In this document: positions 31,663 to 46,262 of the stretch, piece after piece
Layout of the letters: every line of letters starts with the position of its first letter
Position numbering within the stretch: position 1 is the first letter of the stretch
From: Phycisphaerales bacterium
GTDB taxonomy: Bacteria; Planctomycetota; Phycisphaerae; Phycisphaerales; UBA1924
Direction: 5' to 3'
Assembly (NCBI GenBank): GCA_035628115.1
Contig: DASPKL010000004.1
Location: forward strand, 13,001 to 77,000
DNA: 64,000 bases
Made by a program: the position numbers and the translations under genes
The notes under the pieces: model-generated
The model's input: the letters and a program-made list of their open reading frames with translations, nothing else
The model's database searches: none
Told to the model about the DNA's origin: nothing

Positions 31663-31809
31663 GACCGCAGAGACACAGAGGTACAGAGAAGAGAAAGACG
31701 GGATTGGGTTCGACACGCGAGAGCAGCGGGAACCCGGGTGCGTCCCCGCCTTCTCTTCCAACCTGCCATTTCTTCTTTCTTCTCTGTGCCTCTGTGTCTC
31801 TGTGGTGAA
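31663..31809. repeat. MITE-like hairpin element, family A (CACAGAG-rich terminal inverted repeats)
   Basis: The left arm GACCGCAGAGACACAGAGGTACAGAGAAGAGAAAG (31663-31697) is the imperfect reverse complement of the right arm ...CTTTCTTCTCTGTGCCTCTGTGTCTCTGTGGTGAA (ending at 31809). The same end motif recurs at 36605-36632, 41709-41728 (degenerate) and 42674-42703. Confidence 0.7.
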
Positions 31810-35442: not shown

Positions 35443-35589
35443 GAACACAGAGCAAAACGGAGAGAAGAAGAGGAAAACAGAGAGGAGAATACTGGGCTCA
35501 GAAAAGAAGAGCATCGTCTCGCTCTTCTTTTCAACCAGGTTTTCCTCTTCTCTGTCTTCCTCCTCTTCCCTCTGTCTTGCTCTGTGTTC
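35443..35589. repeat. 147-bp imperfect palindrome between convergent genes; a central perfect 12-bp hairpin may act as a bidirectional terminator
   Basis: The ends GAACACAGAGCAA (35443-35455) and TTGCTCTGTGTTC (35577-35589) are exact reverse complements. The inner stem is GAAAAGAAGAGC (35501-35512) / GCTCTTCTTTTC (35521-35532) with an 8-nt loop. The right end overlaps the TAG of the minus-strand gene. Confidence 0.7.
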
Positions 35590-36263
35590 TAGGCGGCCAC
35601 CGTCGCACTCACGCGCTCGCCCCAGGCGCCGACCTCGCCGGTGGTCGTCAGCCACCGGCACTGGTAGTGCACCGTCTTCCCCGCGTGCGCGGGCTCGAAG
35701 GACAACCGCACGCCGTCGCGGGTGATGGTGCGGACGTAGCGGTACGCCTGCTCGTCCTGCGGCGCGGGCGCGCCCGGCTCGGTGAGCGCGACGTAGACCT
35801 CCGCGCCGAGGACGCCGCGGGGCTTGCGCCGCGCGGGGGAAGATTCAGAAGGCACGAAGCGGAGACGGTGTGTAAACCGCGCGTCCTGCTCGACGCTCAC
35901 GTGTGGGGCAGGCGTCCCGCCTGCCACCGCGCCGCCCCCGGCGCCGCGCACGGTCAGCCCCATGTCCGCCCGGTTCGCGTTGGTCGTCAGCGGCATCGCC
36001 TGGATCAGCGCCGCCAATTGCCGCGCTGCGCGCTCGAGCGATGCGCGGGATTCGTTCTTGGTCGTCGTCGCGGCCCTGGCCGCATCGCGCGCGGCGCGGG
36101 CCGCGCTCAGGTCGGTCGCGAACTGCGCGGCCAATCCCTGCACGTCGATCGCGGGGGAGGGGTCCGCGCCGGTGAGCAGCAGGAACTCGTACGCCCGCGC
36201 GCCGAAGTGCTCGGCCCACGTCGCGAAGTCGGCGTCCTCTCTGGGGACGAAGTCGTGGGGCAT
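35589..36263 (-). CDS. hypothetical protein, island-flanking paralog L (helical N-part, FN3-like C-part)
   Basis: ATG 36261-36263 (MPHDFVPREDADFATW...) aligns with the paralog at 41869-42528. Shared blocks are DADF..W, H.LRFV......RR.KP.GVLG.E and GKT..Y..RW....GE.G.WGE...AT.AA. Confidence 0.7.
   Translation of the reverse strand: MPHDFVPREDADFATWAEHFGARAYEFLLLTGADPSPAIDVQGLAAQFATDLSAARAARDAARAATTTKNESRASLERAARQLAALIQAMPLTTNANRADMGLTVRGAGGGAVAGGTPAPHVSVEQDARFTHRLRFVPSESSPARRKPRGVLGAEVYVALTEPGAPAPQDEQAYRYVRTITRDGVRLSFEPAHAGKTVHYQCRWLTTTGEVGAWGERVSATVAA
35903..35927. repeat. REP-like palindrome, family C copy lying in frame inside the paralog L CDS
   Basis: Identical 25-mer to 34318-34342. 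On the coding (minus) strand it is translated as VAGGTPAPH. Confidence 0.8.
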
Positions 36264-36500
36264 GGCGACGGCATCGGCGATTCCCGCGCGCAACTTCACC
36301 GGTACACGCGATCCGCGTGGTCTTCCCCGCGACCCGCGCGGTGCACCCCGCGCGGTCCGCGCGGCCCCACGCCCGCGCCGGGGCGGCCCCCGCGTCCATC
36401 GCGGCCTTCCCCGAGCAACGCGGGGAAACCCCCGGCCGTCGCGGGGAACGCACCGAACGATCCGCGGGCGAGCGAATCCGCGCGCCGGGAGCCCGGCGCT

Positions 36501-36604: not shown

Positions 36605-36690
36605 TTCACCACAGAGGCACAGAGACACAGAGGTGGACCGGGTCGCAGAGCGCACGGAACAGGAAGCCCGACCGTGAGGGAGGGCATTCC
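36605..36690. repeat. left 86-nt inverted repeat bounding the low-GC island
   Basis: It pairs with 41643-41728. The outer 20-mer is 18/20 identical and the inner 33-mer is 30/33 identical to the reverse complement of the right copy. Composition drops immediately after 36690. Confidence 0.8.
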
Positions 36691-36830: not shown

Positions 36831-37724
36831 ATGCTCAACAAGCACCAGATTATTTCAGAACTTAAAGAGCAAATTTTGATTGCTGGGCACGAGCCCACCG
36901 CTCAGTTCTTTGCAGAGAAAGGCGAACCAAAACGATTCGATGATGGCAGTGCCCTGATACTGCAGGGAGATACTACCGATTCTGTTTTCTTTATCCTAGC
37001 CGGTCGGGTCGACGTATTTGTGAATCACCGATATGTCGGCAGTCGGCAGAAACGTGAGCATGTGGGCGAGATGGCACTGCTCCACCCTGCTTTGGCTCGA
37101 TCGGCAACCGTACAGGCGGTCGGTAGCGTGACTGCACTGGAGGTGTCATCCGTAGATTTCATTCATGCGGCAAACAAGCACCCTCCCATCTGGTTGTCCA
37201 TCGCGAGAACATTGGCTGAGCGACTTCGCGAACGCGAGAAGTTGCTCCGCCCGAAGAACCCGAAGCCTGTGATATTCATTGGCTGCGCGTCGGAATCAAA
37301 GGTCATTGCCGACTTGGTGGTTCAACAGTTCGAGTACGACAAAGCCAAGTTTGACGTAGTGCCTTGGTACCACGGCGTGTTTGGTCCGAGCCGATACACT
37401 ATTGATGATTTGATGAAGCAGGTAGACAGGGCCGACTTCGCACTGTTCGTATTCCATCCCGAGGACGTTATCACCAGTCGGGGTGCTTCGACCGACGCGC
37501 CTCGTGACAATGTTGTTTTTGAGCTTGGACTGTTCATGGGGCGAGTAGGACGCGAGCGCGTGTTTATGCTTCAGCCGCACGGCATAGATCTGAAAATCCC
37601 TTCGGATCTCACCGGCATGGCTCCGCTCAAGTACACGACCGGCACCGGCGGTCCGAAACCAGCCGACATGATAACCCCAATTAATTTACTGAAAGAGATC
37701 GTCCTGAAGGAGGGCGGTCGGTAG
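36831..37724 (+). CDS. cyclic-nucleotide-binding domain fused to a TIR-like (CAP12/PycTIR-type) effector domain
   Basis: The N-terminal half carries a CAP/cNMP phosphate-binding cassette, GEMALLHPALARSATVQA, preceded by LILQGDTTDSVFFILAGRVDV. The C-terminal half has VIFIGCASES..., PRDNVVFELGLFMGRVGRERVFML and LKIPSDLTGMAPLKY. These match my recollection of the 'predicted nucleotide-binding protein containing TIR-like domain' family used by CBASS/Pycsar effectors. Confidence 0.8.
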   Translation: MLNKHQIISELKEQILIAGHEPTAQFFAEKGEPKRFDDGSALILQGDTTDSVFFILAGRVDVFVNHRYVGSRQKREHVGEMALLHPALARSATVQAVGSVTALEVSSVDFIHAANKHPPIWLSIARTLAERLREREKLLRPKNPKPVIFIGCASESKVIADLVVQQFEYDKAKFDVVPWYHGVFGPSRYTIDDLMKQVDRADFALFVFHPEDVITSRGASTDAPRDNVVFELGLFMGRVGRERVFMLQPHGIDLKIPSDLTGMAPLKYTTGTGGPKPADMITPINLLKEIVLKEGGR

Positions 37725-38250
37725 TGGCCTTGCGTTCACACGCGGTGTGCGACAGGTAGCTGCCCCGAAGTGTCCGTGGATGCTCCCTTATGCGCATTAT
37801 CGCGTACTCGATCGAGCCGAGGTAGCCGTGATTCCAGTAGTCCCACTCAGCTGGCCAGTTCGTGAGGCCCCGGAGATGTGCGTCGTAGTGGCGGTTGATC
37901 AATGACGTCACGTCATTCACGAACCACTCGCAGCCCTCGTCGACGATGGCACGCGCGGGCTTCCCCTTCCAAGCCATCATGTGTCGCCATACATCCACAA
38001 GAGTCCAGCACATAGGCGGTCCATTGTGCCACTCGGAGCCGGTCTTCATCCAAGGCTCGTAGCACGCCGCTATAGGACCTTTGCGCTTGAGATCGCGAAA
38101 GCTCCATGGCACATGCACAACAATCGGCGCCAAGACTGCAGGTGCGTCGAGTCGACCAGCGACGCGGTACCACTTGCCCGTGACGGGGCTAATGGATGGC
38201 TCGCGAAGCCGTAAAGCCAGCTTCTTGGCGAAGCGAAACGAGTGACTCAT
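37681..38250 (-). CDS. hypothetical 189-aa Trp-rich soluble protein, translationally coupled to the tandem cyclase
   Basis: ATG 38248-38250 overlaps the TGA (38247-38249) of the upstream gene. It has 11 Trp in 189 aa, no TM segment and no recognisable motif. The last 44 nt overlap the 3' end of the convergent TIR gene. Confidence 0.6.
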   Translation of the reverse strand: MSHSFRFAKKLALRLREPSISPVTGKWYRVAGRLDAPAVLAPIVVHVPWSFRDLKRKGPIAACYEPWMKTGSEWHNGPPMCWTLVDVWRHMMAWKGKPARAIVDEGCEWFVNDVTSLINRHYDAHLRGLTNWPAEWDYWNHGYLGSIEYAIMRIREHPRTLRGSYLSHTACERKATTDRPPSGRSLSVN

Positions 38251-39701
38251 GGATGGTGGGGCTTGCTGCTGAACGTTTGGTATTGCCCCGGCGCGACGGA
38301 AACGCGCGTTTGCGCCGGTGCAGCAGCAGCTGAAGCACGAACACGATTTAGCCCCAAAGCACTCGCTTTCTTGAACAACGTTGAAGGCTGAGCGCGGACA
38401 GTGACTGCTGTTTCGAACGCTCGCTTGTAGCTGTCGTGCAAGCGGTCCCAGTCGACTTTGTAGAGGACGAGTTCGCTGGCCTTCGGGTTGATATCACCAA
38501 ACGCTTGGGCGCTTCGCCCAACGCCCTCCCCTGCACCGACCAAGAAGCGCCGGCCTGCCAGAATCACGGCACCCAAATAGACATTGCCGCCAGCGTTGCC
38601 GTGCACCGTACCACCCGCGACCCCGTACGCCCATCCCCCGAAACCACACCCACCTGCCCGGTCGCCCATTTCTTTCTCGAAGTCGAGCGCCAGCTCGACG
38701 AGGCGCTTCGGTGCGGCGTCGTCATAGCTGTCCCGTGTAGCGAAAACGGCAGCGGCTGTGAAGTTGTCGCCCGCCCATGGCAATTGCACCATGCTCTCCT
38801 TGTGGCGCGCGGTAAAGTCGGCAGCGCACTGCATGACCTGGTAGAACTCTGTCGCCAAGGCCTGTAGCTTGGCATCGTCGTTCATGCACTGTTCAACCCG
38901 CTTCGTGAAGCCGTCGAGGTCCGCCCTCATCAGCCACCCGAAGTAGATCTCGGGCTTGTCGGCAACCGGGTCGCCGAAGTCCACCGGCACCGCGCGGGCG
39001 ACCGTCTCTTTCAGGCCGCTTCGAGCCTCCTTATACAGAACCTGTGGCGAGAATTGACGGGCTTCTCTCACCATACCGACGGAATCATCAAGCCTGACTC
39101 TGATCTTGGCGAGGTCTTCAATGACCCACTCCCTTCTCGTCGGGTGCCAGCAGCCGATGTGGAAGTCCTTCAAAGCGCGGTCTTCCTTGTTGCGCTCAAG
39201 CTGCGAATACAGGTACTTCGCAGGCCGGTTGGCAGCGGTGCCCAACGAGACCCACGAGTCGTCGCCGTGCACCCCCCGCTGGGAGACTACCAGTGTCTTG
39301 CCGACATCCATGGTCATGCACCAGCTCTGAACGCGCGATGCGCGGTCGTCGAAGACGCCGTTGTAGATCTGGTGCAACTCTCCAGCGAAGGAGAGAAGCG
39401 GCTCGAAGTCGTCGTTCCCCACAGGGATGCCGATGTGGAGCAGGGATCCCTGAACCTCCATCAGCGTTCCGCCCCGTCGGTCCGCGAGCATCTGAGCGGC
39501 ATGCGATGCACGAGCGACCGAGCGAAGAAACGCCCTTGCGTCATCTGCCGTTGTGGCGTTCTCGTACTTCGGTTGGAAGTCGAGCTTCACGTAGAGGTGT
39601 GCGAGGAGGACCGGTGAGAACGGGAAGCTCCCGGCTTGCTTTCTCGCTTCGAACAGGTCCTTGAAGTCCTTCGCCCGCTCCGCCTTGATCGTTGTCGGCA
39701 T
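38247..39701 (-). CDS. tandem class III nucleotidyl-cyclase-homology protein (degenerate N-domain + catalytic-looking C-domain)
   Basis: ATG 39699-39701 is preceded by GGAG (cacGGAGtagaaccaATG). The C-domain has LMRADLDGFT and AGDNFTAAAVF (the two metal-Asp motifs) plus GVAGGTVHGNAGGNVYLGAV. The N-domain has the same layout (LYVKLDFQPKY, VQGSLLHIGIP, MTMDVGKTLVV...LGTAANRPAKYL), but both Asp positions are substituted. Confidence 0.65.
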   Translation of the reverse strand: MPTTIKAERAKDFKDLFEARKQAGSFPFSPVLLAHLYVKLDFQPKYENATTADDARAFLRSVARASHAAQMLADRRGGTLMEVQGSLLHIGIPVGNDDFEPLLSFAGELHQIYNGVFDDRASRVQSWCMTMDVGKTLVVSQRGVHGDDSWVSLGTAANRPAKYLYSQLERNKEDRALKDFHIGCWHPTRREWVIEDLAKIRVRLDDSVGMVREARQFSPQVLYKEARSGLKETVARAVPVDFGDPVADKPEIYFGWLMRADLDGFTKRVEQCMNDDAKLQALATEFYQVMQCAADFTARHKESMVQLPWAGDNFTAAAVFATRDSYDDAAPKRLVELALDFEKEMGDRAGGCGFGGWAYGVAGGTVHGNAGGNVYLGAVILAGRRFLVGAGEGVGRSAQAFGDINPKASELVLYKVDWDRLHDSYKRAFETAVTVRAQPSTLFKKASALGLNRVRASAAAAPAQTRVSVAPGQYQTFSSKPHHP

Positions 39702-40175
39702 TGGTTCTACTCCGTGACTGCGGCCTAACCGGGCAGAGGGCAACCCCCGTGCCAAAAAGAACTAGTCGGAATTCGGGGGGTAACGGCCCCCTAGCGGCCC
39801 GCCTACGCGGGCGGTCGTGACACCCGGTGGCACCCGGTTGTTGGAGTCTGCCAGAACGGCAGCGTAACCTATGGTTCATTCTGTAACCAAGCTCAACAGC
39901 TGGACTTCTGGACCCCCTAAAGGTGGTCAAGAGACGGCGGCTGCGACGATCCCCAGTGAGATCTTTTCCAAGAGCTACCCACAGCTTCATCTCCGGCTGC
40001 ACCACCCCCTTTTCTCTTGGCCCCGCGCGCCAGCGGGCGGTCCGGGCAGCGTGGGGCTTGAGAAGGAGCAGTGTGCGGTGAACAGACAGCCCGATCGTCG
40101 GACAGAGTGTGCAAAGTCGGTGCGGATGGCCGAGGTCGACAAATGTTGCGGAGACTTGTAGCGGTATCAGGAGCT

Positions 40176-40886
40176 TTACAGGCTCCAGTAGTACGACGAG
40201 CGGTAAATCCGCAGGCTCGGGTGGGCGTTCCAAGTTCGTTCTTCCCACATGCTTTTCGAACCATCCGTGGTCACCTTGACGGTGGAGGCGATTCTATCGA
40301 ACACGTCGCCAGTGATCCAAGTCGAGTAAATGCCATCCCGAAGTGAACACAACTTGGCCGCGTAGTTGGCCGCACGCCCGACCCACACGAGGTCATTCGC
40401 GCCACGAATGCCCGTCCGCGCGACCATAAGTTTGCTCGTATCAATGCCGACTGAGTGTCGCACTTCAAAGTCTTTCAGATTATCCTTGTAGTAGTCCTTG
40501 AGCGCGGGGTTGATGATCTTGGTCACCGCATGATTTATCGCCAAAGCAGCACGGACGGCGGCAGTGTTCTTTGACTCGCCAATAAAAATGCCCATCACCC
40601 GGTCGCCGTCAAACGCGGTGATCTCGCCTTTCTGGTTCCTGATTATCCGACAGGCACAGTTCAAGTAGCATTTGTACACGTCAGCAGCGAAAGTGGCTTT
40701 GTACTTGTTCACCAGATTCGTGCTCTCCGCAAGGTCCGCGTACAAGCACGTGGCGTCTAGGCTTACCCCGGTGCTTCCAAGCTCGATGTCTTCTGTCTCT
40801 GGAACAACCCGACCGTCTGTCATCGTCCACTGGGCCTTGATGATCTTGTTGACTTCCGCGTTGAGATCCTCAGTCATCCCCATCAT
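40176..40886 (-). CDS. single-domain class III nucleotidyl cyclase, Pycsar PycC-like
   Basis: 236 aa with CLYADLAESTNL, ITAFDGDRVMGIFIG, AAVRAALAI and VGIDTSKLMVARTGIRGANDLVWVGRAANYAAKL. This is the typical CHD layout without extra domains. Confidence 0.8.
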   Translation of the reverse strand: MMGMTEDLNAEVNKIIKAQWTMTDGRVVPETEDIELGSTGVSLDATCLYADLAESTNLVNKYKATFAADVYKCYLNCACRIIRNQKGEITAFDGDRVMGIFIGESKNTAAVRAALAINHAVTKIINPALKDYYKDNLKDFEVRHSVGIDTSKLMVARTGIRGANDLVWVGRAANYAAKLCSLRDGIYSTWITGDVFDRIASTVKVTTDGSKSMWEERTWNAHPSLRIYRSSYYWSL

Positions 40887-41408
40887 TCACCCCTGATAGA
40901 GGCCGTAGCAGGCAACCAGCCAAATCGGCGTTCCCGCGAAGAGCCAACCCATAGCGTGCCGCACTGCCCTGTACTTCGCCGTCGCGATCTGTGCATTACG
41001 GTGAGTTTGGAGGATTAAGTCTTCCAAATACTTTCTGTCCGAGCGGCCTTTAACTGCCGCGTCGTATTGAATGGCTGTCATAGACGCAATTCCGCGGAAG
41101 AATATCAATGATCCCTGGGGGCCGACTGTCTGGGGAAAGGTCGCGGCTGCCGACCATGCGATAGAGAAAAGCATTGGTACACTTGCAGCTCCCATGAGAA
41201 CGCCGGACTGCCAAGTAATGCATTCCGGACCCGGAGACACGGTTCCAGCCACGGCAAGCATAGCTGTCGCCACGCCGATCACGACTGGTGTCTTACTGTC
41301 CACGGCGCGAATCCAGTCCAACTGGTGCTGGAAAACAGCTTCTTGGCGAGTGATGGCGCTACTAATGTCCGGGACATCGGGAGTCTGGCCAATCGTTGCT
41401 TCTGGCAT
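40887..41408 (-). CDS. small multi-TM protein, Pycsar PycTM-like effector candidate
   Basis: ATG at 41406-41408. The maximal ORF starts at TTG 41438. About 173 aa, with an N-terminal helix QHQLDWIRAVDSKT followed by TM segments PVVIGVATAMLAVAG and GVLMGAASVPMLFSIAWSAAA, plus a C-terminal TM segment WLFAGTPIWLVACYGL. The stop abuts the cyclase ATG (TGAATG). Confidence 0.6.
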   Translation of the reverse strand: MPEATIGQTPDVPDISSAITRQEAVFQHQLDWIRAVDSKTPVVIGVATAMLAVAGTVSPGPECITWQSGVLMGAASVPMLFSIAWSAAATFPQTVGPQGSLIFFRGIASMTAIQYDAAVKGRSDRKYLEDLILQTHRNAQIATAKYRAVRHAMGWLFAGTPIWLVACYGLYQG

Positions 41409-41642
41409 GTCAATGTTCCGTCGGGCGACCGGTGACAAACTGACCGTCGCCTCGGCAAGTCAAAGAGGCCATTGATGGCAGGGAGAGTAACCGCCATGCG
41501 TCTGGCCAACCGATCATACCCTATGCTGAACTGTCCCGAACGCAAGCATTGTCACACGGTAAGAGGTAGTCGCTCCGCGCCCCTCCGCGACCTCGGCGTT
41601 CAAATCTGTGCGAAAGACCGGCGGGGACCACCGGGCCACGCA

Positions 41643-41728
41643 GGAACGCCCTCCCTGACGGTCGGGCTCCCTGTTGAGCGCGCCGTCGGCTGAATCCATC
41701 TCTTCCCGCTCTGCGCCTCTGCGGTGAA
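41643..41728. repeat. right 86-nt inverted repeat bounding the low-GC island
   Basis: Reverse complement of 36605-36690 (see that feature). It lies 140 nt upstream of paralog R, in the same relative orientation as the left copy has to paralog L. Confidence 0.8.
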
Positions 41729-41868
41729 TCTTCCCGGTTCGTCTTCAGCACCATCCCCCGTTGCCCGATCCCCCGTTCTGTTCCCCCCGCGTGCCGGTGG
41801 ACGGCCCGGGCAGCGGCGGGGCTTGAACGCGTGCGGGCCGACGAATCCACAGACAGGAGCGTGTTCTG

Positions 41869-42528
41869 ATGGCAGATTACATCCCGGGCCCCGACGCCGA
41901 CTTCAACGTCTGGCAGAACAACTTCGTCACCTACGCCAACGCCAACCTCGCCGCCCTCGGCCTCGTCGCCGCGGACATGTCGCCGATCACCAGCGCCCAG
42001 TCAACCTGGGCCACCAACTTCCCCGCCCACGTCGCCGCGAAGCAGGCGGCGCAGGCCGCCAAGGCCGCCAAGGACGACGCCCGCCGCGCCTACGTCGCGG
42101 TCATCCGCCCCCTCGTCCGCCGCCTGCAGGCCTCGACCCAGGTGAGCGACGCCGAGCGCGCCTCGCTGGGGATCACCGTCGAGCAGACGCCCGCGCCCAT
42201 CGGCCCCCCGGCCACCGCCCCTGTCTGCTCGATCGAGTGCGGGGCCCGGTTGCAGCACACGCTCCGCTTCGTGGACGAGACCACGCCCACGCGGCGTGCC
42301 AAGCCCCCGGGCGTGCTGGGCGTCGAGATCTGGCACAAGGTGGGCACCACGCCCCCGGCCAACGAGGGCGAGCTGCGCTTCGTCGCGGTGGACACCAACG
42401 CCCCGTACGTCGTCAGCTACGACGCCGCGGACGGCGGCAAGACCGCGTACTACTGGCTGCGCTGGATCTCCCCCAGCGGCGAACGCGGCCCCTGGGGCGA
42501 GCAGTCCCAGGCGACGATCGCGGCCTAA
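41869..42528 (+). CDS. hypothetical protein, island-flanking paralog R
   Basis: 219 aa, MADYIPGPDADFNVWQNNF... It is alignable end to end with 35589-36263. Both end in ...WGE...AT[IV]AA. Confidence 0.75.
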   Translation: MADYIPGPDADFNVWQNNFVTYANANLAALGLVAADMSPITSAQSTWATNFPAHVAAKQAAQAAKAAKDDARRAYVAVIRPLVRRLQASTQVSDAERASLGITVEQTPAPIGPPATAPVCSIECGARLQHTLRFVDETTPTRRAKPPGVLGVEIWHKVGTTPPANEGELRFVAVDTNAPYVVSYDAADGGKTAYYWLRWISPSGERGPWGEQSQATIAA

Positions 42529-42673: not shown

Positions 42674-42703
42674 CCTCTGTGCTCTCTGTGTCTCTGTGGT
42701 GAA
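42674..42703. repeat. family A end motif, solo copy (CCTCTGTGCTCTCTGTGTCTCTGTGGTGAA)
   Basis: It matches 31782-31809 and the reverse complement of 36605-36632. Confidence 0.7.
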
Positions 42704-42764: not shown

Positions 42765-44267
42765 CTACTTGATCGTTACGTCGTAATACAGCCCGTTCTT
42801 CTCCCGCGTCACCGCCCCGGCGAACTTCGACCAGACCCCGTTCGTCACGCCGTCGGGCGCGGGGCGCTTCGAGGGCTCCTTCTCGTCGGGCTCGCTTGTC
42901 AGGACGCGCCCGCGGCAGCGGCGGCGCAGCTCCGTCATCAGGTCCTTCTCCGGGATCTTTTTCCACCCGCTCGCGACCGCGTGCGCCCTGCTCACCGGCA
43001 CGAACGCGGCGAGGTCCGGGCTGTCCATCATCTCCAGGCCCTGGGCCTTCATCGTCCCGTTGTGCGAGCCGTGGTGCCCGACCTTGTAGAGGGCCACGCG
43101 CTTGAAGATGTCGGCGATCGTCACGATCCCGTCGTTGTCCGTGTCGAGCTTCGAGGCCGCGCCGCTCGGCAGCCGGAACTTGAGCGTCTGCCACGAGCGC
43201 CAGCTCCCCGTCTGCGCGTCCCCCGGGAAGAAGAGGACGCGCCCCGTCTCCACGATCTCGAAGGCCAGCGCGAGGGAGGTGTTGTTGATCCCGACGTCCA
43301 GCTGCAGCGCGAGGCGACCCGTGCTCGTCAGCCAGTCGTTGTCGATGCACCGCCATTCCTCGACGTCCACGCCCTCGTAGAGGTCGCGGATCGCGGCGTT
43401 CCGCTCCTTCGCGTCGCGGGCCCTGCGGGCGCACCAGCGCGGGGCGAAGGGGCGGAACGCGTCGTCGTCCCACGAGCCCGCCGCGGCGATCGCGGCGAGC
43501 CCCAGCGCCGGGCTCGCGGCGTACGCCTCGCCCTCGTCCGGGTTCTCCTTGTAGAGGAAGTTGTAGTTCTTGGGGGGGCCGAGCACGTACATGCGCAGCC
43601 CCGGGATCCCCGCGGGCTCCTCCTCGACGACGCCGGGCTCGAAGAACGTCGGCGTGCGGACGAGCCGCAGGGCCGCGTCCATCGCCTTGTCCACGCTCGC
43701 CGAGAGCTTCTTGCTCTCGAGCCTGAGGTCCGCCGCGGTCTTGCCGTCCGCCCCGGCGTCGAAGCCGAGGAAGCCGAGCTTGTCGCGCACGATCGCGGTG
43801 TCGCGGCGGTTGGTGAGGCCGGCCTCGGTCATCCGCCCGAGCGCCGCGCCGAGCGCGGCGAAGCCCGCCTTCTTCTCGTTGTCGAGCGTTTTCGCGAAGT
43901 CGTCCCCGGGATTCTCCGTCCAGGCCGCCCACACCTCGCCGACCCTGATCGATCGCTTGAAGTCGTCGATGGCGAGGTCGAAGCCGCAGACATGGTCGTA
44001 GTGCTCGTGCGTGACGGCGAGGGCGTCGAGCTTGCCGCCCGTCGCCTTCGCGATGTCGGCGATCACCTTCTTGAAGAGCGCGGGCTTGGCGTCGGCCTTG
44101 ACGACGACGCCGCAGTCGATCATGACGTACTTCACCTGCCCGCCCTTCAGACGGAAGGCGAAGAGGAAGCAATCGCCGAAGCCCATGCGGTAGCAGCGGA
44201 CGGTGACGCTCCCCGGCGGCGGGCTGAGCGTGGGCGCCGTCGTGGCGGCGGGGTTCTTCTTGGCCAT
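42765..44267 (-). CDS. metallo-beta-lactamase-fold hydrolase, ComEC-type (putative nuclease)
   Basis: 500 aa with the MBL motif AVTHEHYDHVCGF, a later FFPGDAQ, and the late motif LYKVGHHGSHNGT characteristic of ComEC/Rec2-like MBL domains. No signal peptide. Confidence 0.8.
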   Translation of the reverse strand: MAKKNPAATTAPTLSPPPGSVTVRCYRMGFGDCFLFAFRLKGGQVKYVMIDCGVVVKADAKPALFKKVIADIAKATGGKLDALAVTHEHYDHVCGFDLAIDDFKRSIRVGEVWAAWTENPGDDFAKTLDNEKKAGFAALGAALGRMTEAGLTNRRDTAIVRDKLGFLGFDAGADGKTAADLRLESKKLSASVDKAMDAALRLVRTPTFFEPGVVEEEPAGIPGLRMYVLGPPKNYNFLYKENPDEGEAYAASPALGLAAIAAAGSWDDDAFRPFAPRWCARRARDAKERNAAIRDLYEGVDVEEWRCIDNDWLTSTGRLALQLDVGINNTSLALAFEIVETGRVLFFPGDAQTGSWRSWQTLKFRLPSGAASKLDTDNDGIVTIADIFKRVALYKVGHHGSHNGTMKAQGLEMMDSPDLAAFVPVSRAHAVASGWKKIPEKDLMTELRRRCRGRVLTSEPDEKEPSKRPAPDGVTNGVWSKFAGAVTREKNGLYYDVTIK

Positions 44268-44282: not shown

Positions 44283-46262
44283 TCAGCCGTGGCGGTGGAG
44301 GAAGGCCAGGGGCTCGTCCCCGTCGAAGGAGGCGGTCATGCCCGTCTCGAGCGACCACTCACGGGCGGCCTTGAGCCGCCGGTCGCGCATGACGCTCTTG
44401 TGGATGCAGTAGCGGCAGCACCCTTCATCGACGTCGATGAGGAGGGTGGCCCCGCCGCGGATGCGCGTGAGCGGGGGAGCGTCGGGCTTCTCCCCGGCAT
44501 CGGCCGCCTTCTGGTCTTTGTCGGTGGCGTAGACCGCGCGGGACTGCACGAGCTCGACGACGAGGTCGTGCGAGGAGGCGCCGCCCTCGTGCACGCGCCG
44601 CGCCGGGCGCACGCTGCGGACCCACACGGCCGGCCCGCGCCCGCCGGAGAGCCGGCGCACGGTGCCGGGGGCGTTGTGGCCGACCTCGATGCCCAGCTCG
44701 CGCGCCCGGTTGGGGTCCTTGCGGAGCCGCTCCACCCACACCGACGTGATGCGCTGCTGGTAGAGCTGGGCGCGGACGAAGAGGTCGCGTCGGTCCTCGC
44801 CGATGCGGAAGTCGCGGATCGGATCCAGGGGCGTGCCGTCCCCGCCCATCGCGCGCTTCTCGCCGGGGCTCGCCGGGCGCGCGAGCTCGCCCGCGAACCA
44901 TCCGAAGCCGTCCGTCGGCTTGCTCGGCGGCTGCCACAGGAGCGACCGCTCCGCGAGGGACGTGACGCCCGGGGGGAGGATGCCCCACGCGCGGAACCCC
45001 TCGATGAACGCGACGCGGTAGCCCATGTCGTCGGTGGGCCGCACGTCCGCGTCGGCGGTCACGAGCGCCCGGAGGAACTCCCCGAACGTCGCCTCCCCCG
45101 GCGGCATGTAGTCGAGCGCCCGGATGCAGAGGCGGAGCGTGTGGGCCGCGGCGCGCGACGCTTCCTCGGCGAGGCTCTCGACGAGCAGTTCCGAGAGTTC
45201 TCCGGGCGGGAGCACGCCCGTGCCCCCGGTCGCGAGGCGGACGATCGGCCGCGTGCGGCGCTCGTAGATGGAGAGGAACGCGCCGAAAACGGCGGCGACG
45301 AGGATCGCCCCCCGCTCGTGCGGCTCGGTGATTCTCCCGAGCTGCGTCGGGTCGGGCGTGCGCGCCTTCCAGCGCCCGTCGGGCCCGATCGTGCCGATGG
45401 CGCTGCGCAGCGCCCCGCGCCGGCCCGTCGCGGCGCCGAACTGCACGGCCAGCTCGCCCAGGGCGTTCTCGGCGCGGAGGTCGCCCCGGGTGCGCGCGAT
45501 CTGGTGGCGCAGAGCCTTCGGGAGGGAGAAGTGGCTCATCAGCGCGACGATGTCGGCGAACCCCTCGTGGAAAGCGAGGGCGTCGGGCCCGGTGCTCTCG
45601 AGGAAGAGGCCGTGCGAGCCGTCCAGCACCGCGTGCGTCACCTCGTGGGCGATGATGTCGTGCGAGAGGCAGGAGAAGACCACGCCCCCCGGGAGGCCCG
45701 CCGCGTCGCCCGCGCCGGCCGGGAAGTAGCCGAACAGAAGCGCTGCCTTGTCCGAGGAGTAGTACGCGTTCGCCTCGCGCAGCGCGTGCGGGTAGACGCG
45801 GAGCCGGCGCACGAAGCGCTTCTCCCATCCTTTGATGAGCTCGCCCCGGTCGTCCTTGTCGCGGCTGTTCCAGAGGACGCGCCGGCCCAGCGCCCGCTCG
45901 AACGTCTCGATCACGCGCATCGAGACGGCGTAGACCATTTGCTGGTGGAAGCGCGGGTCTCCCTCGTCGGGCGTGAGGCCGTCGGTCGCGAGCACGTTGG
46001 CGGCGTTGAGGTCGATCGGCGGGTAGAAGCAGCCGCTCGCGGGGTCGTGGTCGATCACCTCCAGGTATTCGCCGACGGGCCCGCGGGTCATCCCGCCGCG
46101 CCGGCCCGGCTCCGCGGGCGATTCCCACGGGATGTCGACCGTCGTCTCGTTGATGTCCGCGAGCGAGAGGCGCGTCGCGAAGCTGGGGTCGAAAGCGAAG
46201 ACGCGGAGCGTGCGCCGCGTGGGCGTGTCGCCCTGCATGCGGAATGACCGTGCGGCAGCCAT
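44283..46262 (-). CDS. cytoplasmic M4/thermolysin-like gluzincin metallopeptidase
   Basis: 659 aa. IIAHEVTHAVLDG followed about 20 aa later by AFHEGFADIVA parallels thermolysin HExxH...ExxxD. No signal peptide or TM segment seen. A 15-nt gap separates it from the downstream MBL gene. Confidence 0.7.
   Translation of the reverse strand: MAAARSFRMQGDTPTRRTLRVFAFDPSFATRLSLADINETTVDIPWESPAEPGRRGGMTRGPVGEYLEVIDHDPASGCFYPPIDLNAANVLATDGLTPDEGDPRFHQQMVYAVSMRVIETFERALGRRVLWNSRDKDDRGELIKGWEKRFVRRLRVYPHALREANAYYSSDKAALLFGYFPAGAGDAAGLPGGVVFSCLSHDIIAHEVTHAVLDGSHGLFLESTGPDALAFHEGFADIVALMSHFSLPKALRHQIARTRGDLRAENALGELAVQFGAATGRRGALRSAIGTIGPDGRWKARTPDPTQLGRITEPHERGAILVAAVFGAFLSIYERRTRPIVRLATGGTGVLPPGELSELLVESLAEEASRAAAHTLRLCIRALDYMPPGEATFGEFLRALVTADADVRPTDDMGYRVAFIEGFRAWGILPPGVTSLAERSLLWQPPSKPTDGFGWFAGELARPASPGEKRAMGGDGTPLDPIRDFRIGEDRRDLFVRAQLYQQRITSVWVERLRKDPNRARELGIEVGHNAPGTVRRLSGGRGPAVWVRSVRPARRVHEGGASSHDLVVELVQSRAVYATDKDQKAADAGEKPDAPPLTRIRGGATLLIDVDEGCCRYCIHKSVMRDRRLKAAREWSLETGMTASFDGDEPLAFLHRHG

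What the first reader, a model, noticed from the sequence alone, without database searches (positions are those of the whole stretch)
36831..39701. Candidate undescribed Pycsar-like variant: fused pseudo-heterodimeric cyclase + Trp-rich 189-aa partner facing a cNMP-binding/TIR-like effector
(i) The 484-aa protein (38247-39701, -) reads as two class III cyclase-homology domains in one chain. The C-domain keeps both metal-Asp motifs (LMRADLDGFT, AGDNFTAAAVF). The N-domain keeps the layout but has lost both Asp. This is an asymmetric C1/C2-like enzyme rather than the homodimeric single-domain PycC type.
(ii) Its stop overlaps (ATGA) the start of a 189-aa soluble protein with 11 Trp and no recognisable motif. 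That protein could be a sensor, regulator or second effector.
(iii) The only protein here with a textbook cNMP phosphate-binding cassette (GEMALL...RSATV) is fused to a CAP12/PycTIR-type TIR-like domain. It is encoded convergently, and its 3' end overlaps gene (ii).
I do not recognise this three-gene arrangement from described Pycsar or CBASS types.
Basis: partly seen in the sequence, partly recalled or inferred. Interest (0 to 1): 0.9.

Follow-up and report, generated by a model that had tools for sequence, protein, structure and literature searches.

The report
Pycsar defence operon with E2-like partner
This is a three-gene anti-phage signalling system of the Pycsar type, made of a two-domain nucleotide cyclase, a very divergent ubiquitin-E2-like protein and a cyclic-nucleotide-activated NAD-destroying effector; the kind is already sketched in the literature, but current annotation tools miss this branch.

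Summary

- **Cyclase.** The 484-aa protein is a tandem class III cyclase. Its best structural match is PaPycC (6YII), the known two-domain "clade A" Pycsar cyclase. The fused pseudo-heterodimer is therefore not new.
- **Partner.** The "motif-less" Trp-rich 189-aa protein is a divergent stand-alone E2 (UBC-fold) protein with invariant WH...C. Of 89 family representatives, 56 hit CBASS-type E2 HMMs, although the window copy itself hits none.
- **Linkage.** The E2-like gene directly follows the cyclase in 61 of 61 informative loci. It is fused to the cyclase in two proteins.
- **Effector.** The next gene is always a Pycsar effector: PycTM, CNBD-TIR or CNBD-hydrolase. The window's 297-aa gene is a textbook PycTIR. 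A convergent effector recurs in 5 loci, there with PycTM.
- **Surroundings.** A canonical PycC+PycTM pair sits next door in the same low-GC island.
- **Precedent.** Pycsar-type cyclases with E2 or E2-E1 partners have been noted in the literature only in passing ("Type II Pycsar", "Pycsar-like-4"). A P. aeruginosa clade A pycC also has an E2 ORF downstream that is not in the plasmid's gene table.

Verdict: a new, HMM-invisible variant of a known kind, an E2-only tandem-cyclase Pycsar. Interest is moderate.

The parts
38247..39701 (-). Tandem class III cyclase (clade-A-like PycC), 484 aa, a pseudo-heterodimer in one chain
   Evidence: The AF2 model has pLDDT 85.7 and pTM 0.85, with two domains (1-216 and 250-480) and a disordered linker at 220-248. 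Foldseek finds 6YII (PaPycC) at E 1.8e-16 and TM 0.63, then AC9 C1-C2 and human soluble AC. PADLOC long-PycC models match only weakly, at E 9e-5. The family has at least 129 members, all named 'hypothetical'.
39054..39701 (-). N-terminal degenerate cyclase domain (residues 1-216), C2-like. It keeps invariant N158 and K162 (AANRPAK) and has lost the canonical metal Asp residues (K39, S86).
   Evidence: Alignment A2 gives the invariant columns. hhalign against the neighbouring canonical PycC aligns EVQGS with AFDGD and SLGTAANRPAKY with WVGRAANYAAKL, P 0.0014. Codons were checked.
38367..38954 (-). C-terminal catalytic cyclase domain (residues 250-445), C1-like, with metal-binding D261, D263 and D312
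   Evidence: FGWxMRADLDGFT and QLPWAGDNFTA are invariant in 40 homologues. Codons are 38919-38921, 38913-38915 and 38766-38768.
38250..38366 (-). C-terminal extension of the cyclase (helix plus beta-hairpin), ending in the conserved tail [RKQ]P[YHFW] plus 2-5 residues (here KPHHP). Candidate docking or processing site for the E2-like partner.
   Evidence: Secondary structure comes from the model. The tail motif is conserved in about 70 loci at 23-100% identity. QPH is also present near the C-terminus of PaPycC. Its role is inferred.
37681..38250 (-). Stand-alone divergent E2 (UBC-fold) protein, 189 aa, translationally coupled to the cyclase (ATGA). H75 is at 38026-38028 and the candidate catalytic C81 at 38008-38010. 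The last ~30 residues are non-conserved read-through into the antisense of the PycTIR 3' end.
   Evidence: The AF2 topology is alpha1, four beta strands, a WHN...C loop and a long helix. The Foldseek top hits are Vps23 UEV, UFC1 and UbcH8, and they are weak. hhalign against human E2s scores 24.5, against a shuffled maximum of 20.6; C81 aligns with the catalytic Cys85. Of 89 family representatives, 56 hit PADLOC E2 model PDLC00865. The gene is present after the cyclase in 61 of 61 loci. Fusion proteins P0184 and P0277 exist.
36831..37724 (+). [quoted passage not shown] It is convergent with the E2-like gene and overlaps its 3' end by 44 nt.
   Evidence: Pfam gives PF00027 (2.4e-12) and PF10137 (4.5e-27). 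PADLOC gives PDLC00731 at 1e-98 and PycTIR PDLC02371 at 4e-88, both full length. Collinear orthologues follow the E2-like gene in L001, L005, L006 and L010, among others.
40176..41438 (-). Neighbouring canonical two-gene Pycsar: PycTM (40887-41438) and single-domain PycC (40176-40886), in the same low-GC island
   Evidence: PADLOC gives PycC PDLC00766 at 1e-98 and a 2TM effector at 3e-39. Pfam gives PycTM PF18967. The same adjacency is seen in L001 and L026.
36650..36690 (.). Left arm of the 41-nt inverted repeat that brackets the five-gene island
   Evidence: the repeat finder pair I1, 85% complementary. There are only two copies in the window and none expected by chance. The island GC is 53-61%, against 69% for the window.
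41643..41683 (.). Right arm of the same inverted repeat

Best explanation
**What it is.** The region holds a three-gene Pycsar-type abortive-infection system, horizontally acquired by a Phycisphaerales bacterium.

**Step 1, signal synthesis.** The 484-aa protein is a single-chain pseudo-heterodimeric class III cyclase.
- The C-domain supplies the metal-binding aspartates D261, D263 and D312.
- The degenerate N-domain supplies the Asn/Lys transition-state motif (N158, K162).
- Together they form one composite active site.
- That site makes a 3',5'-cyclic mononucleotide on phage infection. The identity of the nucleotide is unknown; relatives make cUMP.

**Step 2, control of the cyclase.** The 189-aa protein is a stand-alone, very divergent E2/UBC-fold protein with invariant H75 and C81.
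- It is made in step with the cyclase through the ATGA overlap.
- It acts on the cyclase itself, most likely by binding its conserved C-terminal extension and tail (...KPHHP).
- It may process that tail or form a covalent link to it, as the E2 of E2-only CBASS does with CdnG.
- In this way it would set or gate cyclase activity.

**Step 3, effector.** The cyclic nucleotide binds the CNBD of the 297-aa PycTIR. Its TIR domain then hydrolyses NAD+ and stops the infected cell.

**What is shown and what is inferred.**
- Shown: the folds, the motifs, the strict gene linkage and the fusions.
- Inferred: the product, the trigger, the E2 chemistry and the defence phenotype.
For: **Cyclase.**
- The AF2 model matches PaPycC 6YII, then AC9 C1-C2 and soluble AC.
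- The catalytic motifs are invariant in 40 homologues.
- The N-domain AANxPAK aligns with the canonical PycC motif.
- Distant family members hit clade-A-length PycC HMMs at E 1e-11 to 1e-20. One of them, the L055 cyclase, hits 6YII by sequence at 2e-5.

**E2-like protein.**
- The model has the UBC fold order.
- The best Foldseek hits are UEV and E2 proteins.
- hhalign against human E2s gives P 0.0018 and aligns C81 to the catalytic Cys.
- None of 300 shuffled controls reaches that score.
- W74, H75, C81, W88, W132, W136 and H141 are invariant in 89 representatives.
- Of those 89, 56 hit PADLOC E2 models and 44 hit E1-E2 models.

**Linkage.**
- The E2-like gene follows the cyclase in 61 of 61 loci with enough sequence.
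- It also does so in three reverse look-ups that started from the small protein.
- Cyclase-E2 fusions P0184 and P0277 exist.
- Effectors are swapped (PycTM, CNBD-TIR, CNBD-hydrolase) while the cyclase-E2 pair stays constant.

**Cyclase tail.** The extreme C-terminal motif [RKQ]P[YH] is conserved.

**Effector.** The 297-aa protein matches PycTIR models over their full length.

**Precedent.**
- The E2-CBASS E2 binds a C-terminal helix/beta-sheet motif of CdnG, cleaves its tail and links to it covalently (PMC12948482).
- P. aeruginosa clade A pycC is followed by an ORF that hits PADLOC E2 at 1e-108.
Against: - The window's own 189-aa copy hits no E2 HMM.
- Its AF2 model is only moderate (pLDDT 72, with a low-confidence active-site loop).
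- All Foldseek matches of that model have E above 0.06.
- The cyclase tail has no terminal Gly like the substrates of CBASS Cap2/E2.
- No E1 or JAB gene is present.
- The PycTIR gene lies on the opposite strand, unlike all 17 other CNBD-TIR loci, so co-regulation in this window is not assured.
- 6YII was deposited as an ATP-binding protein with no stated cyclase activity (title shown).
- No experiment on any member of this family was found.
Confidence: 0.6

Rival explanations
1. The 189-aa protein is a catalytically inert, UEV-like regulatory or sensor subunit. It binds the cyclase, or a phage protein, non-covalently, and no E2-type thioester or protease chemistry is involved.
For: The top Foldseek hit is the Vps23 UEV domain. 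The window copy fails all E2 HMMs. No E1, Ubl or JAB gene lies in the island. The cyclase tail lacks a Gly.
Against: C81 and H75 are invariant across 89 representatives at about 21% mean column identity. C81 aligns to the E2 catalytic Cys. E2-only CBASS shows that E1-independent covalent chemistry is possible (PMC12948482).
Confidence: 0.25
2. The tandem protein is a nucleotide-binding sensor rather than an active cyclase. In this island the signal for both PycTM and PycTIR comes from the neighbouring single-domain PycC, and the tandem protein plus E2 only modulates it.
For: 6YII was described as an adenylyl-cyclase-like ATP-binding protein (title). A canonical PycC lies next to the triad in the window, in L001 and in L026. 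The preprint notes multi-cyclase Pycsar loci.
Against: Most of the 61 loci have no second cyclase within the flanks examined, yet always have a cNMP-dependent effector. The metal Asp residues and the Asn/Lys motif are invariant. NCBI names the P. aeruginosa clade A homologue a Pycsar uridylate cyclase (pycC annotation).
Confidence: 0.1
3. The three genes are not one functional unit in this genome. The PycTIR gene was inverted or swapped in and is now an orphan or independently expressed effector. The overlap with the E2-like gene would then be an accident that may even disturb expression.
For: This is the only one of 18 CNBD-TIR loci with the effector on the opposite strand. PycTIR has a lower GC (53%) than the cyclase (61%). 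The E2-like protein has a non-conserved ~30-aa tail read from the antisense of PycTIR. No promoter-like or terminator-like signal was found.
Against: All three ORFs are intact with all invariant residues. A convergent effector with 3' overlap recurs with PycTM in L019, L043, L045/46, L050 and L067. The identical 189-aa protein is seen on contigs from other samples.
Confidence: 0.1

Closest known systems
Pycsar clade A (tandem-domain PycC, e.g. P. aeruginosa PaPycC, PDB 6YII, with PycTIR)
   Same: Both have two class III cyclase domains in one chain, and 6YII is the best structural match. Both use a CNBD-TIR effector. In P. aeruginosa pF007 an E2 ORF lies directly downstream of pycC; it hits PADLOC E2 at 1e-108 and is not listed in the plasmid gene table. 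Both cyclases have a [QKR]P[HY] motif near the C-terminus.
   Different: Structural-alignment identity is only 14%. Neither the window protein nor the profile of its 40 closest homologues finds 6YII by sequence. The gene order differs (pycTIR-pycC-E2 in P. aeruginosa). The P. aeruginosa E2 is 272 aa with a Cys-rich C-terminal part, whereas the window's is a minimal protein with a conserved core of about 160 aa. Hosts here are Planctomycetota and Verrucomicrobiota.
E2-CBASS (type II short CBASS, e.g. Serratia marcescens CdnG-E2, PDB 8YJY)
   Same: A signalling nucleotide synthase is paired with a stand-alone E2 and no E1 or JAB. The synthase carries a C-terminal helix plus beta-strand extension. 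Many family members hit the same PADLOC E2 HMMs. 8yjy_B appears among the Foldseek hits (rank 23).
   Different: The synthase is a class III cyclase fold, not a CD-NTase. The signal is a cyclic mononucleotide sensed by a CNBD. The cyclase tail lacks the C-terminal Gly. Covalent chemistry is untested here.
'Type II Pycsar' (PMC11601596) and the 'Pycsar-like-4' subclade (preprint 10.64898/2026.08.12.744502)
   Same: A Pycsar-type cyclase is genomically linked to ubiquitin-conjugation-like proteins that are presumed to act on the cyclase.
   Different: Those are described with fused E2-E1 proteins, or with E2 fused to an inactive JAB, plus JAB peptidases and WYL/Pol-beta modules. None of these is present in the window. 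I could not check whether this family is part of Pycsar-like-4, because its tables are not held.
Mammalian membrane adenylyl cyclase C1-C2 and soluble AC
   Same: One chain holds two cyclase-homology domains. One domain gives the metal Asp residues and the other gives the Asn/Arg-type residues, so there is a single active site.
   Different: The domain order is reversed: here the degenerate C2-like domain comes first. The relationship is structural only, at 10-13% identity.

Membership tests
Pycsar system | A class III (cyclase-homology-domain) nucleotide cyclase, PycC | tested here: met
   The fold matches 6YII at E 1.8e-16. The metal-Asp motifs are invariant. HMM support is only weak (PADLOC PycC E 9e-5).
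Pycsar system | An adjacent effector that senses a cyclic mononucleotide (PycTIR or PycTM) | tested here: met
   The window has a full-length PycTIR match at E 1e-98. Of the 52 loci with enough sequence beyond the E2-like gene, 50 have an effector directly after it.
Pycsar system | The cyclase makes cCMP or cUMP, and the system protects against phage | not testable with these tools
   This needs enzymology with LC-MS and plaque assays.
Pycsar clade A PycC | Two consecutive cyclase domains in one protein (PMC11224242) | tested here: met
   The AF2 model shows two domains, 1-216 and 250-480. The whole length aligns to 6YII, AC9 C1-C2 and soluble AC.
Pycsar clade A PycC | Falls inside clade A by sequence or phylogeny | tested here: inconclusive
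   The window protein scores only E 9e-5 against the 486-position PycC model. It has no PDB sequence hit, even with a profile. Distant relatives bridge the gap: PADLOC 1e-11 to 1e-20, and 6YII at 2e-5. No tree with the 967 published PycCs could be made.
E2 / UBC superfamily (CBASS-type E2) | UBC fold: N-terminal helix, four-stranded sheet, active-site loop, long crossover helix | tested here: met
   The AF2 secondary-structure order matches. UEV, UFC1 and UbcH8 are the top Foldseek hits, but with E 0.065-0.3, so confidence is moderate.
E2 / UBC superfamily (CBASS-type E2) | An HPN-like motif followed by a conserved (catalytic) Cys | tested here: met
   W74, H75 and C81 are invariant in 89 representatives. 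hhalign puts C81 on Cys85 of UbcH5B, score 24.5 against a shuffled maximum of 20.6.
E2 / UBC superfamily (CBASS-type E2) | Recognised by E2 family HMMs | tested here: inconclusive
   The window copy has no Pfam, PADLOC or NCBIfam hit. Of the 89 family representatives, 56 hit PDLC00865 (best 3e-8) and 44 hit the E1-E2 model PDLC00833.
Type II CBASS / Type II Pycsar (Cap2 E1-E2 plus Cap3 JAB) | An E1 adenylation domain and a JAB peptidase in the operon | tested here: not met
   The five island genes are all assigned and none is E1 or JAB. The flanking genes give no such hits. The small protein is 189 aa and has an E2 core only.
PycTIR effector | An N-terminal CNBD with a phosphate-binding cassette plus a C-terminal CAP12/Pycsar TIR domain | tested here: met
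   PF00027 covers residues 34-115 and PF10137 covers 148-268. PDLC02371 PycTIR matches residues 4-295. GEMALL and RSATV are present.

The most novel reading that the evidence does not exclude
Tandem-domain Pycsar cyclases as a class are controlled by a dedicated minimal E2 that works without E1. The E2 would dock on the conserved C-terminal helix/hairpin of the cyclase and cleave, or covalently capture, the invariant [RK]P[YH] tail to arm or restrain cNMP synthesis. This would be an 'E2-Pycsar' mechanism that arose in parallel with E2-CBASS on an unrelated synthase fold and uses a non-glycine acceptor tail. It would give the first handle on how any PycC is switched on.
Probability: 0.3. Interest if true: 0.65.

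Novelty: new variant of a known kind. Interest (0 to 1): 0.5.

Why it matters
How Pycsar cyclases sense infection and are kept off is still unknown. This family offers a strictly conserved partner: an E2-like gene after the cyclase in 61 of 61 loci, two natural fusions, and a conserved cyclase tail. Together these make the question testable.

The family also shows that ubiquitin-like E2 control has been attached to a second, unrelated class of immune nucleotide synthases.

Whole branches of such systems go undetected by PADLOC, Pfam and NCBIfam. The branch found here is mainly in Planctomycetota and Verrucomicrobiota, and the E2-like protein forms about 270 clusters at 50% identity. In this window only the PycTIR and the neighbouring canonical Pycsar would be annotated.

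Tried and rejected
**Searches that found nothing.**
- Sequence searches of the cyclase, as a single sequence and as a 40-sequence profile, found no cyclase in the PDB. Only structure comparison did.
- Pfam, NCBIfam and PADLOC gave nothing for the window's 189-aa protein. Neither did a PDB profile search.
- The word-indexed protein search found only 4-10 relatives of the small protein. The exhaustive representative search was needed to find more.
- The search for related loci with the small-protein alignment failed for lack of a conserved stretch.
- No relatives were found on viral contigs.

**Comparisons that did not work.**
- hhalign of the N-domain against the C-domain, and of the C-domain against the canonical PycC, was not significant.

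**Sequence-feature scans with nothing useful.**
- The promoter/terminator scan found no promoter-like site and no more terminator-like stem-loops than in shuffled sequence.
- There are no tRNA genes and no Rfam matches.

**Ideas rejected.**
- I considered that convergent effectors belong to a separate canonical PycC-PycTM operon. In L019, L046, L050 and L067 no single-domain cyclase lies beyond the PycTM.
- I considered a Zn-site or phosphodiesterase role for the His/Cys-rich small protein. I dropped it once the E2 HMM hits appeared.

**Papers I could not read.** Tal 2021, Ledvina 2023 and the Slavik review are not held. The Pucsar preprint's tables are not held either.


Full report
**Setting.** The window has about 69% G+C. 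A 5-kb stretch of 53-61% G+C lies at about 36.7-41.7 kb. It is bracketed by a 41-nt inverted repeat that occurs nowhere else in the window: 36650-36690 and 41643-41683. The island holds five genes.
- 36831-37724(+), 297 aa.
- 37681-38250(-), 189 aa.
- 38247-39701(-), 484 aa.
- 40176-40886(-), 236 aa.
- 40887-41438(-), 183 aa.

The last two are a textbook two-gene Pycsar. PycC matches PADLOC PDLC00766 at 1e-98. PycTM matches Pfam PF18967 and a PADLOC 2TM effector model at 3e-39. An identical copy of the 484-aa protein is recorded from a Phycisphaerales MAG as a hypothetical protein, HYF13857.1.

**Check of the observation.** Every stated detail holds.
- The lengths are 484, 189 and 297 aa.
- The strings LMRADLDGFT, AGDNFTAAAVF, GEMALL and RSATV are present.
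- The small protein has 11 Trp.
- The cyclase stop and small-gene start overlap as ATGA.
- The convergent PycTIR and small genes overlap by 44 nt.
- Forty homologues start at the ATG of 39701, so 484 aa is the right length, not the 502-aa TTG ORF.

**The 484-aa protein.** It has no Pfam, NCBIfam or PDB sequence match. PADLOC gives only weak, colinear hits to long (486-508 position) PycC models, at E 9e-5.

An AlphaFold2 model built on 40 homologues is confident (pLDDT 85.7, pTM 0.85). It shows two alpha/beta domains, 1-216 and 250-480, joined by a disordered linker.

Foldseek against the PDB puts 6YII first, at E 1.8e-16 and TM 0.63 over the whole length. Next come the C1-C2 catalytic cores of adenylyl cyclase 9 and many human soluble adenylyl cyclase entries. 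6YII is PaPycC. [quoted passage not shown] The fused architecture is therefore real but already described.

The motif pattern fits one composite active site.
- The C-domain keeps invariant FGWxMRADLDGFT and QLPWAGDNFTA, with D261, D263 and D312.
- The N-domain has K39 and S86 at the canonical Asp positions.
- The N-domain keeps invariant AANRPAK. This aligns with GRAANYAAKL of the neighbouring canonical PycC.

**The 189-aa protein.** Taken alone it matches no library. Four lines of evidence place it in the E2/UBC superfamily.
- **Fold order.** The AF2 model (pLDDT 72, pTM 0.68) runs N-terminal helix, four strands, a loop carrying W74-H75-N76...C81-W82, a long helix, then short helices. This is the UBC fold order. 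The best Foldseek hits are Vps23 UEV, UFC1 and UbcH8. The E2 of the Serratia CdnG-E2 complex appears further down. All of these hits are weak, with E 0.065 or more.
- **Conserved core.** An exhaustive search found 270 clusters at 50% identity. Across 89 representatives the invariant residues are W74, H75, C81, W88, W132, W136 and H141. The consensus PPxVxCxExWxRxxxDWHxxxxGxLCWVLxxxW parallels the E2 signature PPKVxFxTxIYHPNxxxxGxICLDILxxxW.
- **Profile comparison.** Against three human E2s, hhalign gives P 0.0018 and places C81 on the catalytic Cys85 of UbcH5B. The score is 24.5. Column-shuffled E2 alignments give a mean of 11.5 and a maximum of 20.6, so 0 of 300 reach it.
- **HMM hits across the family.** Of the 89 representatives, 56 hit the PADLOC CBASS-type E2 model PDLC00865 (best 3e-8). 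A further 44 hit the E1-E2 (Cap2) model PDLC00833. The window copy hits none.

**Linkage.** Scans with the cyclase profile gave 14 genome loci and 66 metagenome loci, at 23-56% identity.
- Of 76 distinct loci, 61 have at least 400 nt beyond the cyclase stop. All 61 carry the E2-like gene directly downstream on the same strand, usually overlapping or abutting the cyclase gene.
- Three look-ups that started from the small protein gave the same picture.
- Two proteins, P0184 (677 aa) and P0277 (708 aa), are cyclase-E2 fusions.
- The gene after the E2-like gene is a Pycsar-type effector in 50 of the 52 loci with enough sequence beyond it. It is PycTM on the same strand in 25, PycTM convergent in 5, CNBD-TIR in 17, and CNBD fused to an alpha/beta-hydrolase-like domain in 3. 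The other 2 loci are unclassified; in one of them (L026) the next gene is a convergent canonical PycC.

The cyclase-E2 pair is thus the constant unit and the effector is exchangeable. This argues that the E2-like protein works on or with the cyclase.

The window is the only CNBD-TIR locus with a convergent effector. The convergent layout with 3' overlap does recur with PycTM, including in the closest homologue, L019. In those loci no extra single-domain cyclase lies beyond the effector.

**A possible target.** All tandem cyclases of this superfamily end in a conserved tail, [RKQ]P[YHFW], followed by 2-5 residues and rarely more. In the window it reads KPHHP. The tail sits on a C-terminal helix plus beta-hairpin that extends beyond the second cyclase domain.

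In E2-only CBASS the E2 binds a C-terminal helix/beta-sheet motif of CdnG, cleaves residues after its C-terminal Gly, and becomes covalently linked to it (PMC12948482). By analogy, I propose that the E2-like protein docks on this extension and perhaps processes it. This is inference. There is no terminal Gly, no E1 and no JAB.

**Relation to what is known.**
- Distant members of the cyclase family hit clade-A-length PADLOC PycC models at 1e-11 to 1e-20. One of them, the L055 cyclase, matches 6YII by sequence at 2e-5. The family is therefore a remote branch of, or sister to, clade A.
- On P. aeruginosa plasmid pF007 the annotated order is pycTIR then pycC. An ORF directly downstream of pycC is not listed in the gene table. 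It hits the PADLOC E2 model PDLC00868 at 1e-108. It also aligns to the small-protein profile through the same two motifs, with a score of 24.0 against a shuffled maximum of 19.4. An E2 partner therefore seems to be a general trait of tandem PycCs.
- The accessible literature mentions E2-type partners of Pycsar cyclases only in passing. PMC11601596 refers to 'Type II Pycsar' with a fused E2-E1 protein. A 2026 preprint defines a 'Pycsar-like-4' subclade linked to E2-like proteins, often fused to inactive JAB or E1 domains.
- I found no description or experiment on an E2-only tandem-cyclase Pycsar. I could not read Tal 2021 or the preprint's tables.

**Verdict.** The region holds a complete, apparently intact three-gene Pycsar-type system: a clade-A-like tandem cyclase, a minimal E2-like protein and PycTIR. 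It sits beside a canonical PycC-PycTM pair in a horizontally acquired island.
- The claim of an unrecognised arrangement is only partly supported. The tandem cyclase is known, the partner is an E2, and E2-type accessories of Pycsar cyclases have been noted.
- New here are a large, HMM-invisible Planctomycetota/Verrucomicrobiota branch, the demonstration of obligatory cyclase-E2 linkage with natural fusions, and a conserved cyclase tail that suggests a testable regulatory mechanism.

I rate it a new variant of a known kind, with moderate interest (0.5).

Noticed in passing
window 40176-41438 (-): A canonical two-gene Pycsar (single-domain PycC plus PycTM) sits directly upstream of the tandem-cyclase triad. 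A canonical PycC also lies beside the triad in L001 (with PycTM, upstream) and in L026 (convergent, downstream; the contig ends there). This raises the possibility of two cooperating or cross-talking cNMP systems.
   Followed up: partly
window 36650-36690 and 41643-41683: A 41-nt inverted repeat (85% complementary, unique in the window) brackets exactly the five-gene low-GC island. The arms could be the ends of a mobile cassette or an insertion hotspot.
   Followed up: partly
window 35589-36299 (-) and 41869-42528 (+): The island is flanked by two diverged paralogous genes in inverted orientation (236 and 219 aa, both ending ...GPWGE/GAWGE...ATxAA). Neither has a Pfam or PADLOC match. Their nucleotide identity is low, so the duplication is old.
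   Followed up: partly
window 31666-31804, 36610-36632, 42684-42698: A short repeated intergenic element contains CACAGAGACACAGAG. There are 6 matches and none expected by chance. This is probably a REP-like or MITE-like host repeat.
   Followed up: no
window 39982-40056 and 41746-41820: A 75-nt direct repeat (73% identity) lies about 300 nt upstream of the start of each of the two minus-strand operons (the tandem cyclase and PycTM). It may be a shared regulatory region.
   Followed up: no
window 42765-44267 (-) and 44283-46262 (-): Next to the island lie a 500-aa metallo-beta-lactamase-fold protein and a 659-aa protein. The first has a weak PADLOC LmuA-like N-terminal hit at 7e-11. The second has an HExxH motif (HDIIAHEVTH) and no family match. 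They may form another defence pair.
   Followed up: partly
L003 8050-9216, L016, L017, L088 3697-4839, L089 2154-3326: In Verrucomicrobiota loci the effector is a CNBD fused to an alpha/beta-hydrolase-like domain (380-390 aa; weak Pfam Abhydrolase hits). PADLOC models match only its CNBD part. This may be an undescribed Pycsar effector type.
   Followed up: partly
P0184 (677 aa) and P0277 (708 aa): These are natural single-chain fusions of the tandem cyclase with the E2-like domain at the C-terminus. If the fusions are real, the cyclase tail is internal there, which would fit a self-processing E2.
   Followed up: partly
L086 5356-6174 (P. aeruginosa plasmid pF007, NZ_CP115286.1, about 18.17-18.99 kb): An ORF directly after the clade A pycC is absent from the plasmid's gene table. 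It is a full-length match to PADLOC E2 model PDLC00868 (1e-108) and has a Cys-rich C-terminal part. Published two-gene descriptions of this Pycsar may miss a third gene.
   Followed up: partly
L001 5412-5654: An XRE/CapH-like HTH gene (PADLOC capH at 7e-6, control protein at 1e-6) lies just upstream of the tandem cyclase in a related Planctomycetota locus. No such gene is seen in the window's 474-nt gap at 39702-40175.
   Followed up: no
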